Shown here: piece after piece, positions 1 to 39,000 of the stretch
Layout: each line of letters starts with the position of its first letter
How positions within the stretch are numbered: position 1 is the first letter of the stretch
Source of the DNA: Mustelus asterias
Taxonomy: Eukaryota
DNA length: 64,000 bases
Reading direction: 5' to 3'
Assembly (NCBI RefSeq): GCF_964213995.1
Contig: NC_135808.1
Span: forward strand, 21,824,001-21,888,000
Position numbers: made by a program

Positions 1-3000
1 CCCTCTCTCGCTCGCTCTCTGCGCTCCTCTCTCTCTCGCTCTCTGCGCTCCTCTCTCTCTCTCGCTCTCTGCGCTCCTCTCTCTCTCGCTCTCTGCGCCT
101 CTCTCGCTCTCTGCGCCTCTCTCTCTCGCTCTCTGCGCTCCTCTCTCTCTCGCTCTCTGCGTTCCTCTCTCGCTCGCTCTCAGCGCACCTCTCTCTCTCG
201 CTCTCTGCGCTCCTCTCTCTCTCGCTCTCTGCGCGCCTCTCTCTCTCGCTCTCTGCGCACCTCTCTCTCTCGCTCTCTGCGCTCCTCTATCTCGCTCTCT
301 GCGCCCCTCTCTCACTCGCTCTCTGCGCCCCTCTCTCTCTCGCTCTCTGCGCTCCTCTCTCTCTCGCTCTCTGCGCTCCTCTCTCTCGCTCTCTGCTCCT
401 CTCTCGCTCGCTCTCTGCGCCTCCCTCGCTCTCTGCACGCCTCTCTCTCTCGCACTCTGCGCCTCTCTCGCTCGCTCTCTGCGCCTCTCTCTCTCACTCT
501 CTGCGCGCCTCTCTCGCTCACTCTCTGCTCCTCTCTCGCTCACTCTCTGCGCCTCTCTCACTCGTTCTCTGCGCGCCTCTCTCGCTCACTCTCTGCTCCT
601 CTCTTGCTCATTCTCTGCTCCTCTCTCGCTCGCTCTCTGCTCCCCTCTCTCTCGCTCTCTGCGTGCCTCTCTCTCTCTCGCTCTCTGCGCGCCTCACTCT
701 CTCGCTCTCTGAGCCTCTCTCGCACGCTCTCTGTGCCTCTCTCGCTCGCTCTCTGCGCGCCTCTCTCGCTCGCTCTCTGCGCCTCTCTCGCCCGCTCTAT
801 GCGTGCCTCTCTCGCTCGCTCTCTGCGCCTCTCTCGCCCGCTCTCTGCGTGCCTCTCTCGCTCGCTCTCTGCGCGCCTCTCTCGCTCGCTCTCTTCGCCT
901 CTCCCGCTCGCTCTCTGCGCCTCTCTCGCCCGCTCTCTGCGCGCCTCTCTCGCTCGCTCTCTGCGCCTCTCTCGCTCGCTCTCTGTGCGCCTCACTCGCT
1001 CGCTCTCTGCACCACTCTCGCCCGCTCTCTGCGCGCCTCTCTCGCTCGCTCTCTGCTCCTCTCTCGCTCGTTCTCTGCTCCTCTCTCTCTCGCTCTCTGC
1101 GCCTCTCTCGTTCGCTCTCTGCACCTCTCTCTCTCGCTCTCTGCGCGCCTCTCTCGCTCACTCTCTGCGACTCTCTCTCTCGCTCTCTGCGCCCTTCTCT
1201 CTCTCGCTCTCTGCGCCCCTCTCTCTCTCGCTCTCTGCAGCTCTCTCGCTCGCTTTCTGCGCGCCTCTCCCGCTCGCTCTCTGCGCGCCTCTCCCGCCCG
1301 CTCTCTGCGCGCCTCTCCCGCCCGCTCTCTGCGCCTCTCTCGCTCGCACTCTGCGCGCCTCTCTCGCTCGCTCTCTGCGCCTCTCTCGCTCTCTGCACCT
1401 CTCTCTCTCGCTCTCTGCGCGACTCTCTCGCTCGCTCTCAGCGCGGCTCTCTCTCTCGCTCTCTGCGCCTCTCTCGCTCGCTCTCTGCGTGCCTCTCACT
1501 CGCTCTCTGCGCCTCTCTCTCTCGCTCTCTGCGCCTCTCTCACTCGCTCTCTGCGCCTCTCTCGCACGCTCTCTGCACCCCTCTCTCTCTCGCTCTCTGC
1601 CCCTCTCTCGCTCGCTCTCTGCGCCCCTCTCTCTCTTGCTCTCTTCGCCTCTCTCGCTCGCTCTCTGCGCGCCTCTCTCTCTCGCTCTCTGCGCCCCTCT
1701 CTCGCTCGCTCTCTGCGCTCCTCTCTCTCTCGCTCTCTGCGCCTCTCTCGCTCACTCTCTGCGCCTCTCTCTCTCGCTCTCTGCGTGCCTCTCTCGCTCG
1801 CTCCCTGCGCCCCTCTCTCGCTCGCTCTCTGCGCCCCTCTCTCGCTCGCTCTCTGCGCCTCTCTCGCTCGCTCTCTGCGCCCCTCTCTCGCTCGCTCTCT
1901 GCCCCTCTCTCGCTCGCTCTCTGCGCCACTCTCTCGCTCGCTCTCTGCGCCCCTCTCTCTCTCGCTCTCTGCGACTCTCTCGCTCGCTATCTGCACCCCT
2001 CTCTCGCTCGCTCTCGGCGCGCCTCTCTCTCGCTCTCTGCGCCTCTCTCGCTTGTTCTCTGCTCGTCTGTCTCGCTCGCTCTCTGCGCCCTCTCTCTCTC
2101 GCTCTCTGCGCGCCTCTCTCTCTCACTCTCTGCACGCCTCTCTCTCTCGCTCTCTGCGCCCCTCTCTCTCTCGCTCTCTGCGCGCCTCTCTCGCTCGCTC
2201 TCTGCGCCTCTCTCGCTCGCTCTCTGCGCCTCCCTCGCTCTCTGCGCGCCTCTCTCTCTCGCTCTCTGCGCCTCTCTCGCTCACTCTCTGCGCCTCTCTC
2301 TCTCGCTCTCTGCGCGCCTCTCTCGCTCACTCTCTGCTCCTCTCTCGCTCACTCTCTGCTCCTCTCTCGCTTGCTCTCTGCTCCTCATCTCTCGCTCTCT
2401 GCGTGCCTCTCTCTCTCGCTCTCTGCGCGCCTCTCTCTCTCACTCTCTGCGCCTCTCTCGCTCGCTCTCTCTGCCTCTCTCGCTCGCTCTCTGCGCACCT
2501 CTCTCTCTCGCTCTCTGCAACTCTCTCGCTCGCTCTCTGCGCGCCTCTCTCGCTCGCTCTCTGCGCCTCTCTCACCCGCTCTCTGCGTGCCTCTCTCGCT
2601 CGCTCCCTGCGCCTCTCTCGCCCGCTCTCTGCGTGCCTCTCTCGCTCGCTCTCTGCGCCTCTCTCGCTCGCTCTCTTCGCCTCTCCCGCTCGCTCTCTGC
2701 GCCTCTCTCGCCCGCTCTCTGTGCCTCTCTCGCCCGCTCTCTGTGCGCCTCTCTCGCTCGCTCTCTGCGCCACTCTCGCCCGCTCTCTGCTCCTCTCTCG
2801 CTCGCTCTCTGCTCCTCTCTCTCGCTCTCTGCGCCTCTCTCGCTCGCTCTCTGCACCTCTCTCACTCGCTCTCTGCGCGCCTCTTTCTCTCGCTCTCTGC
2901 GCGCCTCTCTCGCTCACTCTCTGTGACTCTCTCTCTCGCTCTCTGCGCCTCTCTCGCTCGCTCTCTGCGCGCCTCTCTCGCTCGCTCTCTGCGCGCCTCT

Positions 3001-39000: not shown

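What the first reader, a model, noticed from the sequence alone, without database searches (positions are those of the whole stretch)
1..37677. The >37-kb satellite probably lies inside an intron of an upstream MHC-I gene
Seen: ~280 bp after the satellite is a well-formed phase-1 exon encoding xSDKGDSTTISSAGS* with acceptor and donor, and no earlier exon is present in the window. Inference: its partner exons lie upstream of base 1, so the pre-mRNA would carry a pyrimidine-rich tract of tens of kb that is nearly free of AG dinucleotides. Scarcity of AG and AATAAA on the sense strand could explain why such an expansion is tolerated, and array length could tune expression. Caveat: the internal scaffold gap makes linkage across the array uncertain.
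[Added by the scan's program, not by the reader: the finding's places include an assembly gap (unread letters, written N; its length is only estimated) at 24330 to 24529. Whether the letters on both sides are continuous or in frame is not known: test that first.]
Basis: partly seen in the sequence, partly recalled or inferred. Interest (0 to 1): 0.65.

Follow-up and report, generated by a model that had tools for sequence, protein, structure and literature searches.

The report
Shark MHC-I tail exon behind satellite
A 37-kb CT-rich tandem repeat in a shark MHC class I gene cluster separates a genuine class I tail exon from the rest of its probable gene, an unusual but not unprecedented case of a satellite filling an intron-sized space.

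Summary
Bases 1-37346 are one 22/24-nt CT-rich minisatellite array (A 1.3%, 24 AG, no AATAAA). About 280 nt after it lies a 48-nt phase-1 exon, 37628-37675, with donor GT at 37676-77.

The window is starry smooth-hound shark (Mustelus asterias), in a multicopy MHC class I cluster. The exon is a true class I cytoplasmic-tail exon. It matches 13 of 14 residues of the tail of two M. asterias class I models and carries the 'SD.G.S' tail shared by elasmobranch class I proteins.

NCBI's read-through model P0001 begins with class I alpha1-alpha3-TM exons that are not in the window. It then continues into window exons at 42.7 and 45.4 kb. Class I exons therefore do lie upstream on the + strand, and an annotated intron spans the array.

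Gap test: the 770 nt before the gap are identical to the 770 nt after it, a dovetail that favours continuity.

No protein model seen uses the 37628 exon. The cyt1 exon is missing. The upstream copy looks aberrant.

AG scarcity follows from composition and mutation origin, not from shown selection. Expression tuning is untested. Verdict: partly supported, moderate interest.

The parts
1..24329 (+). CT-rich, CpG-dense 22/24-nt minisatellite array, left contig. It runs off the window start.
   Evidence: TRF; unit spacing 24 nt x437 and 22 nt x388; kb-scale higher-order copies at 99-100% identity.
24330..24529 (.). Assembly gap of 200 N. It was not filled.
   Evidence: The last 770 nt before it (23560-24329) equal the first 770 nt after it (24530-25299).
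24530..37346 (+). The same minisatellite array, right contig, physically contiguous with the tail exon.
   Evidence: same unit variants and same orientation; unit-frequency correlation between the two sides r = 0.87.
37347..37627 (+). Non-satellite 3' end of the putative intron. It holds a (CTGT)n transition to 37363, five AGs (37390-37474), then a 151-nt AG-free zone that is 80% pyrimidine (37477-37627) and ends in ...cctttaacAG.
   Evidence: No cyt1-like coding was found here.
37628..37675 (+). 48-nt phase-1 MHC class I cytoplasmic-tail exon: (x)ct-SDKGDSTTISSAGS-TGA-g. The donor GT follows at 37676-77.
   Evidence: It matches 13 of 14 aa of the P0011/P0044 tail. 63 of 129 fetched class I proteins end in the same tail type by a strict pattern.
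42703..42870 (+). 168-nt phase-1/phase-1 exon with no known family. NCBI model P0001 uses it to bridge the upstream class I gene to the downstream one.
   Evidence: tblastn 100% over 56 aa; splice sites read; no Pfam family.
45394..45531 (+). 5'UTR/leader exon of the downstream class I gene (ATG at 45468; MREAAMIGLIELVLLCGEVSA). It is used as an internal exon in P0001.
54468..54728 (+). alpha1 exon of the downstream class I paralogue.
   Evidence: Pfam MHC_I, E = 2.4e-13; sequence.
55101..55373 (+). alpha2 exon of the downstream paralogue.
   Evidence: Pfam MHC_I, E = 1.1e-16; sequence.
61537..61800 (+). alpha3 exon of the downstream paralogue. Its TM and tail exons are not in the window.
   Evidence: Pfam C1-set, E = 4.2e-14; 100% identical to P0001; no TM-like frame in 61800-64000.

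Best explanation
The window comes from the multicopy MHC class I cluster of the shark Mustelus asterias. By recall, not test, this is probably the nonclassical UBA-type cluster.

A young minisatellite of 22/24-nt CT-rich, CpG-dense units has expanded to at least 36-37 kb. Growth was by slippage and by kb-scale unequal exchange. The array sits where the last intron(s) of a class I gene copy should be. It lies between the TM (or cyt1) exon, which is upstream of base 1, and the 48-nt cytoplasmic-tail exon at 37628-37675.

By position and descent, then, the array is intronic. On the sense strand it carries almost no splice or poly(A) signals, simply because it contains almost no A. Any transcript crossing it would be an unstructured CU tract with about 100 CUCUCU per kb. 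By recall that is the PTB-type binding motif.

My inference is that this copy is aberrant. The tail exon is probably used rarely or not at all. Transcripts would then end early or run on into the next gene, as NCBI's read-through model does.

Shown: the array, the identity of the exon, the existence of upstream class I exons in an annotated model, and the dovetail across the gap. Inferred: that the tail exon belongs to that upstream copy, that the array is transcribed, and what it does to splicing.
For: - Array anatomy.
- Higher-order copies: 15 of 36 one-kb chunks have a copy at >=99% identity elsewhere in the array, and 33 of 36 have a copy at >=90% over >=600 bp.
- Tail exon: it matches 13 of 14 aa of the tail of M. 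asterias models P0011/P0044, in the same phase and with the same stop. Typical 348-aa paralogues end ...YNKK|GRGKSDYNPANT|SDGGDSSSSSSTRS. 63 of 129 fetched class I proteins end in this tail type.
- Upstream exons: P0001 residues 1-292 (alpha1-alpha3-TM) match nothing in the window except the downstream paralogue at 65-92%. Residues 293-348 and 345-395 map to 42702-42869 (100%) and 45381-45533. The model's intron therefore spans the array.
- No competing 3' end: no stand-alone model of the upstream copy exists. The best identity among the 120 listed of 366 hits was 87%. That argues the copy has no ordinary tail exons before the array.
- Gap: 770-nt exact suffix/prefix identity; same unit spectrum on both sides, r = 0.87.
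- Sense-strand signals: 24 AG, 0 GTRAG, 0 AATAAA/ATTAAA; 3717 CUCUCU; a 240-nt sample folds no better than shuffles, z = 0.29.
Against: - No protein in the sets I fetched carries the window's exact tail: 0 of 129. Only P0011 and P0044 of 24 candidates carry its near-twin. P0001 skips the exon.
- The cyt1 exon expected just upstream of the tail exon is absent from 37347-37627.
- P0001 starts at MGMTP..., without the leader and the first alpha1 residues, so the upstream copy may be 5'-defective.
- P0001 is a computed model. I could not see what transcript evidence, if any, supports it.
- Linkage between the upstream exons and the tail exon crosses a scaffold gap. An array built of 99-100% identical kb blocks is hard to assemble, so its length is uncertain.
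- The sister locus that carries the same tail type reads part of alpha1 in another frame. This tail type is therefore so far seen only in odd-looking models.
Confidence: 0.6

Rival explanations
1. Working giant intron. The upstream class I gene is functional. Polymerase crosses the whole array, the TM or cyt1 donor is spliced to 37628, and array length modulates the yield or the inclusion of the tail exon.
For: - The exon has an intact acceptor behind a 151-nt AG-free, 80% pyrimidine zone, an open frame, its stop and a good donor.
- The tail keeps the family's SD.G.S signature.
- The sense strand is free of GTRAG and poly(A) hexamers and has only 24 AG.
- All class I exons here are phase 1, so TM-to-tail splicing stays in frame, as in models of other species such as P0085 ...KKK|ASDKEESS.
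Against: - No model uses the exon.
- The cyt1 exon is missing near it.
- The only model of the upstream copy is a truncated-start read-through fusion.
- AG scarcity needs no selection. 337 of 496 A's sit in CAC, as expected from CGC>CAC changes, and GA is also rare at 60.
- The downstream paralogue tolerates G-rich intron arrays with 83 GTGAGT in one intron. Absence of splice-like motifs is evidently not a condition for tolerance in this family.
Confidence: 0.15
2. Orphan exon beside an intergenic array. The tail exon is a relic of a class I copy whose 5' part was lost or replaced when the array grew. The class I exons seen in P0001 belong to a separate gene that ends before the array, and the array is not transcribed.
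For: - No model uses the exon.
- The cyt1 exon is absent.
- The tail has drifted from the paralogue consensus: TTISSAGS against SSSSSSTRS.
- The array is CpG-dense, 11.3 CpG per 100 bp with o/e 1.37. It is a plausible heterochromatin target.
- Gene models in this cluster are messy: P0010 and P0001 are chimeras.
Against: - If the upstream copy had normal tail exons before the array, an ordinary 348-aa model would be expected. None at >=90% identity to it was found.
- The exon keeps both splice sites, its frame and its stop.
- It lies on the same strand and in the right order relative to P0001's upstream exons.
Confidence: 0.2
3. Assembly artefact. The two satellite-ended contigs are wrongly joined, or the array length is inflated or collapsed, so the apparent >37-kb span and the linkage to upstream exons are not real.
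For: - There is a 200-N scaffold gap inside the array.
- kb-scale blocks are 99-100% identical.
- The 770-nt block at the two gap edges also occurs a third time, at 27841. The edge identity could therefore reflect a repeat-induced break in the assembly graph.
Against: - The suffix of the left contig equals the prefix of the right contig for exactly 770 nt, ending at the gap edges. Of 3000 random cut pairs in the array, scored up to 300 nt, 10 reached >=260.
- Both sides share unit lengths, variants and orientation, r = 0.87.
- Even without the left contig, 12.8 kb of array is contiguous with the exon.
Confidence: 0.1

Closest known systems
Cytoplasmic-tail exon of vertebrate MHC class I genes (the exon-7 equivalent; elasmobranch tails ...T|SD[KGD]G[DE]SSS...)
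   Same: It is 48 nt long, in phase 1, begins with SD.G.S, and is a Ser/Thr-rich tail ending in a stop that is followed by a donor site. It lies on the same strand as class I exons, in a class I cluster.
   Different: The second half of the tail reads TTISSAGS instead of the SSSSSSTRS of the 348-aa paralogues. No cyt1 exon lies near it, and it is separated from any TM exon by at least 37 kb. That HLA exon 7 is 48 bp long is recalled, not tested.
Satellite-containing gigantic introns of Drosophila Y-linked fertility genes kl-3 and kl-5 (PMC6508621; I saw only the search listing and the start of the abstract)
   Same: A simple tandem array fills the space between exons of one annotated gene and would have to be transcribed to join them.
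   Different: Those introns are megabase-sized, are shown to be transcribed, and depend on a dedicated germline programme. Here the span is about 37 kb, transcription is not shown, and the gene is an immune gene copy of doubtful integrity.
Multicopy nonclassical UBA class Ib cluster of elasmobranchs (Verissimo et al. 2023, PMC10751288; passages read)
   Same: Many class I paralogues lie on one 140.5-Mb M. asterias chromosome record. The closest named relatives are the Heterodontus and Ginglymostoma 'MHC class I protein' entries at 69-75% identity. Triakis classical class I antigens are only 54-57% identical.
   Different: No tree with named UBA/UAA references was built. The assignment rests on my recall of which old entries are UBA. 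The paper passages I read say nothing about intron satellites, and its supplements were closed.
Expanded purine/pyrimidine intronic repeats that impede transcription (for example the GAA/TTC repeat in FXN intron 1; recalled, no call)
   Same: It is a strand-asymmetric repeat (82% pyrimidine on the sense strand) inside an intron-like position, for which length-dependent dampening of expression is conceivable.
   Different: The tract is not a pure homopyrimidine: the longest pyrimidine run is 19 nt and the median is 3. It is interrupted by G every few bases, so triplex formation is doubtful, and no expression effect is shown.

Membership tests
MHC class I cytoplasmic-tail exon | Encodes the conserved SD.G.S... 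Ser-rich C-terminus ending in a stop | tested here: met
   SDKGDSTTISSAGS* matches 13 of 14 aa of the P0011/P0044 tail. 63 of 129 fetched class I proteins end in the strict pattern.
MHC class I cytoplasmic-tail exon | Phase-1 exon boundary compatible with the TM, cyt1 and alpha3 donors | tested here: met
   The exon starts with 'ct' completing a codon. The alpha1, alpha2 and alpha3 exons of the neighbouring gene all end with one extra base. g+ct gives the Ala seen in P0011 (VVIY|A|SDKG), and a+ct gives the Thr of the 348-aa paralogues.
MHC class I cytoplasmic-tail exon | Lies downstream of class I TM exon(s) of the same gene, on the same strand | tested here: inconclusive
   The upstream alpha1-alpha3-TM exons are inferred only from NCBI model P0001, whose first 292 residues are absent from the window. 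The genome upstream could not be read.
MHC class I cytoplasmic-tail exon | Is spliced into mRNA | not testable with these tools
   No transcript data were available. 0 of 129 fetched proteins carry this exact tail.
Satellite-filled giant intron (kl-3/kl-5 type) | A tandem array lies between exons of one gene | tested here: inconclusive
   This holds for the annotated read-through model P0001. It is not shown for a natural transcript.
Satellite-filled giant intron (kl-3/kl-5 type) | The array is transcribed as part of the pre-mRNA | not testable with these tools
   No RNA data.
Satellite-filled giant intron (kl-3/kl-5 type) | Intron of hundreds of kb to Mb | tested here: not met
   At least 37 kb is visible. 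The upstream extent is unknown because the array runs off the window.
Minisatellite or satellite array with higher-order repeats | Head-to-tail units with a dominant period | tested here: met
   Units are 22 and 24 nt: 825 of 960 spacings on the left and 417 of 493 on the right. TRF counts about 1611 copies.
Minisatellite or satellite array with higher-order repeats | kb-scale blocks more alike than neighbouring monomers | tested here: met
   15 of 36 one-kb chunks have a copy at >=99% identity 1.2-14 kb away, while overall monomer matches are 82-84%.
Elasmobranch UBA (multicopy class Ib) lineage | Groups with named UBA sequences in a tree; low polymorphism; altered peptide-binding residues | not tested
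   The evidence is indirect only. There are many paralogues on one chromosome record, identity to Triakis classical class I is 54-57%, and the downstream copy has GSHSLQIF where paralogues have GSHSLRYF.

The most novel reading that the evidence does not exclude
The array is a transcribed, length-polymorphic intron of a working nonclassical class I gene. Its CU-rich RNA, about 100 CUCUCU per kb over more than 36 kb, would recruit pyrimidine-tract-binding proteins and so decide whether the conserved Ser-rich tail exon is included. Satellite length would then set the ratio of tailed to tail-less (or read-through) class I molecules in different individuals.
Probability: 0.1. Interest if true: 0.6.

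Novelty: new member of a known kind. Interest (0 to 1): 0.3.

Why it matters
MHC class I genes are usually compact. A copy whose tail exon is cut off by a satellite of at least 36 kb shows how tandem-repeat growth can remodel or disable members of a fast-evolving immune gene family in sharks. It also shows how such arrays mislead automatic annotation: here two class I genes are fused into one 726-aa model.

If the array were transcribed and spliced out, it would be a vertebrate, autosomal, immune-gene counterpart of the satellite-filled introns known from fly Y chromosomes, and a natural length-variable regulator. On present evidence it is more likely a structural curiosity of a decaying paralogue.

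Tried and rejected
- **cyt1 exon or remnant.** I looked between the array and the tail exon (37347-37627) and anywhere upstream, using tblastn with P0007, P0001 and P0011. Nothing was found. A short open stretch after an AG at 37390 shows no likeness to GRGKSDYNPxxT and has no GT donor (read).
- **Second copy of the tail exon.** I searched 37800-64000 for one, or for the downstream gene's TM and tail exons, to compare the 'equivalent intron'. There was none: the best blastn matches were 10-22 nt at E >= 0.48, and no TM-like frame appears.
- **Same family as the G-rich intron arrays?** I tested whether the G-rich arrays in the downstream gene's introns are the same satellite in reverse. Rejected: 0-2.4% of their 12-mers occur in the reverse complement of the array and none in its forward strand. 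Only low-complexity 8-mers are shared.
- **CpG-decay reading of the variant spectrum.** It is not clean. The commonest differences are G>T and G>C alternations between unit subtypes, so I draw no methylation conclusion from it. Only the CAC context of the A's is used.
- **Whole-array self-megablast.** At >=98.5% identity and >=700 bp it printed just one row, the 770-nt gap-edge identity. The chunked search is the one used for higher-order structure.
- **RNA fold.** A 240-nt sample showed no structure beyond shuffles.
- **Literature.** Searches for shark + MHC class I + intron + satellite (14 papers, none relevant by title or abstract) and for Mustelus asterias + genome (20 papers, 10 listed) found no description of this array. 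Searches gave only general MHC papers. This absence holds for those searches only.
- **Prokaryote, phage and plasmid collections.** I did not use them, since they cannot hold shark sequence.
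Full report
**What the window is.** The right part of the window holds a class I gene on the + strand.
- The alpha1 exon (54468-54728) and alpha2 exon (55101-55373) match Pfam MHC_I at E = 2.4e-13 and 1.1e-16. 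The alpha3 exon (61537-61800) matches C1-set at E = 4.2e-14.
- I searched these exon models one at a time and did not join them. No search or fold of a joined spliced product of the window's gene was made.
- The alpha3 exon alone, searched against longer proteins, returned 46 proteins at E <= 0.001 among 95 candidates. The top hit was 100% identical: P0001, 'uncharacterized protein LOC144497682 [Mustelus asterias]', on a 140,552,254-bp record. A series of 348-aa M. asterias class I proteins from the same record followed at 90-92%.
- The window is therefore starry smooth-hound shark, not human, in a multicopy class I cluster.
- Verissimo et al. 2023 (PMC10751288, passages read) describe a cluster made exclusively of multicopy nonclassical UBA genes in elasmobranch MHCs. 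The copies here are 54-57% identical to Triakis classical class I antigens and 69-75% identical to the old Heterodontus and Ginglymostoma entries. That fits a nonclassical lineage, but I built no tree, and the UBA label is my recall.

**The array.** TRF gives a single array from base 1 to 37346, with period 24 (about 1611 copies, 82% matches) or period 46.
- Splitting at a pentamer anchor gives units of 24 nt (437 left of the gap, 227 right) and 22 nt (388 left, 190 right). These account for 825 of 960 spacings on the left and 417 of 493 on the right.
- The + strand is 82% pyrimidine: A 1.2-1.4%, C 50%, G 17%, T 32%.
- It has 24 AG (0.6-0.7 per kb, against 76 per kb in the rest of the window), no AATAAA or ATTAAA, and no GTRAG (9.7 per kb in the rest).
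- It is very CpG-dense: 4190 CpG, or 11.3 per 100 bp, with o/e 1.37 against 0.37 in the rest.
- It has kb-scale higher-order structure. 33 of 36 one-kb chunks have a non-self match of >=600 bp at >=90% identity. 15 of 36, all between 5 and 28 kb, have a copy at >=99%, several at 100%, 1.2 to 14 kb away. The outer parts (1-4 kb and 29-37 kb) match at 90-96%. This is the signature of recent block duplication or homogenisation.

**The gap, tested first.** I did not fill it.
- Both flanks carry the same unit lengths, the same variants and the same orientation. The frequencies of the unit variants on the two sides correlate at r = 0.87.
- The last 770 bases before the gap (23560-24329) are identical to the first 770 bases after it (24530-25299). 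No other suffix/prefix length of 20 nt or more matches. The block occurs once more, at 27841.
- In 3000 random pairs of cut points within the array, scored up to 300 nt, 10 reached 260 nt or more. Long identities are therefore not rare here, but one that ends exactly at both contig edges is what overlapping contig ends look like.
- I read this as favouring continuity. The true sequence would be about 970 nt shorter than written. It is not proof, because the assembly of 99-100% identical blocks is intrinsically uncertain.
- Independently of the gap, 12.8 kb of array is contiguous with the exon.

**The exon.** The acceptor is ...cctttaacAG at 37626-27.
- The exon runs 37628-37675 (48 nt). It reads 'ct' completing a codon, then SDKGDSTTISSAGS, then TGA at 37672-74, then one further base. 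The donor is GTATGA from 37676.
- The acceptor is preceded by a 151-nt AG-free zone that is 80% pyrimidine.
- Typical M. asterias class I proteins end ...VIYNKK|GRGKSDYNPANT|SDGGDSSSSSSTRS. Two models of another locus (LOC144496947; P0011 and P0044) end ...VVIY|A|SDKGDSRTISSAGS, one residue different from the window's exon. tblastn places that tail on 37612-37671.
- The exon has no second copy in 37800-64000.
- It is therefore a genuine class I cytoplasmic-tail exon, not a repeat and not a non-MHC gene.

**Are there partner exons upstream?** None is in the window. P0001, at 726 aa, gives the answer.
- Its residues 1-292 are a class I alpha1-alpha2-alpha3-TM sequence ending ...VIYNKK. In the window this sequence matches only the downstream paralogue, at 65-92% identity.
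- Residues 293-348 map at 100% to 42702-42869.
- The next residues map to the leader exon at 45381-45533.
- The rest is the downstream gene.
- A gene model is collinear on one strand, so NCBI's annotation places class I exons upstream of base 1 on the + strand and draws an intron across the whole array.
  1. P0001 skips the 37628 exon. No protein I could find uses that exon: 0 of 129 fetched proteins hold its exact tail, and only P0011 and P0044 of 24 candidates hold the near-twin.
  2. No stand-alone model of the upstream copy exists. The best identity to P0001 residues 1-292 among shorter proteins was 87% (366 hits among 1090 candidates, 120 listed). This cuts both ways. It suggests the copy has no ordinary 3' end before the array. 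It also suggests there is no transcript support for TM-to-37628 splicing.
  3. P0001 begins MGMTP..., lacking the leader and the first alpha1 residues, and the cyt1 exon is not near the tail exon. The copy looks damaged.

**AG scarcity and 'tolerance'.** The counts are right, but they need no selective explanation.
- The unit consensus contains no A.
- 337 of the 496 A's sit in CAC, as expected from CGC>CAC changes. GA is also rare, at 60. The 24 AG fall into 18 distinct local contexts, because some are copied with the higher-order blocks.
Its introns carry G-rich arrays that begin exactly at the donor sites and hold 83 GTGAGT in intron 3 alone.
- Those G-rich arrays are not the same family as the big array.

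**How it most likely works.**
- Shown: a young array that is homogenising in blocks, a real tail exom 265-282 nt beyond it, and annotated class I exons beyond its other end.
- Inferred: the array grew inside the last intron(s) of one class I copy, by slippage and unequal exchange.
- Inferred: if transcribed, the sense RNA would be an unstructured CU tract. A 240-nt sample has z = 0.29 against shuffles, and there are 3717 CUCUCU, about 100 per kb. By recalled knowledge, that motif is bound by PTB-type splicing repressors.
- Inferred: the likeliest outcome is poor or no use of the tail exon, with transcripts ending early or reading through, as the NCBI model does.
- My odds: about 0.6 that the array is intronic by position and descent in an aberrant copy; 0.15 for a working, length-sensitive intron; 0.2 for an orphan exon beside an untranscribed intergenic array. 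A wrong join across the gap, at about 0.1, overlaps with these.

**Comparison with the known.**
- The exon passes the tests for a class I tail exon, except the one that needs RNA.
- The closest analogy for the whole arrangement is the satellite-filled gigantic introns of Drosophila kl-3 and kl-5 (PMC6508621; only the listing and the start of the abstract were seen). Those are megabase-sized and shown to be transcribed, so this is at most a small, unproven relative.
- Intronic purine/pyrimidine expansions such as FXN GAA (recalled) are a functional analogy for length-dependent dampening. Here the longest pure pyrimidine run is only 19 nt.
- My searches found no report of a satellite in a shark class I intron.

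**What stayed unchecked.**
- The shark genome outside the window, any RNA data, and other copies' introns could not be reached.
- Supplementary files of Verissimo et al. 2023, which may list class Ib gene coordinates, were closed.

Noticed in passing
window 23560-24329 and 24530-25299 (also 27841-28610): The 770 nt on either side of the 200-N gap are identical, and the block recurs once more 3.3 kb further on. It looks like overlapping contig ends written as a gap.
   Followed up: yes
window 45532-45948, 55372-56102, 57397-58614, 60675-61476: In the downstream class I gene, tandem arrays start exactly at the donor GT of exon 1 (a 63-mer, 6.6 copies) and of the alpha2 exon (a 25-mer, 20 copies at 98%). 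Each unit repeats a GTGAGT donor-like motif. Intron 3 holds 83 GTGAGT in 6.2 kb. The effect on splice-site choice is unknown.
   Followed up: partly
window 42703-42870 and 45394-45531: NCBI model P0001 (726 aa) fuses two neighbouring class I genes. It does so through a 168-nt exon of no known family and an acceptor just upstream of the downstream gene's start codon. It is probably a read-through or merge artefact.
   Followed up: partly
window 54468-54728 (alpha1) and proteins P0012, P0013: The downstream copy reads GSHSLQIF where the 348-aa paralogues read GSHSLRYF. Its closest relatives, P0012 and P0013, end right after the TM (…KKVRARQ and …KKGRNLKGK), without the usual tail. This sub-lineage may generally lack usable tail exons.
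   Followed up: no
window 1-37346: The array is a 37-kb CpG-rich block: 4190 CpG with o/e 1.37, against 0.37 in the flanking 26.7 kb.
   Followed up: partly
window 45315-45322: CTGATTGG, an inverted CCAAT that by recall resembles the Y box of MHC promoters, lies about 70 nt upstream of the leader exon segment used in P0001. This suggests the downstream gene has its own promoter (sequence; the motif identity is recalled, not tested).
   Followed up: no
window 50555-53431 and 62803-63312: Broken reverse-transcriptase and RNase H fragments of retroelements lie on both strands, inside intron 1 of the downstream gene and after its alpha3 exon (Pfam RVT_1 and RT_RNaseH).
   Followed up: partly
proteins P0011 and P0044 (another M. 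asterias locus, LOC144496947): The only models with the near-identical tail splice alpha3 directly to the tail exon, with no TM. They also read part of alpha1 in another frame, so that locus too looks defective.
   Followed up: partly
window 38097-38223 and 62097-62434: Two further small tandem arrays are present: a 28-nt G/T-rich unit (4.6 copies) about 420 nt after the tail exon, and a 34-nt unit (10 copies) after the alpha3 exon.
   Followed up: no
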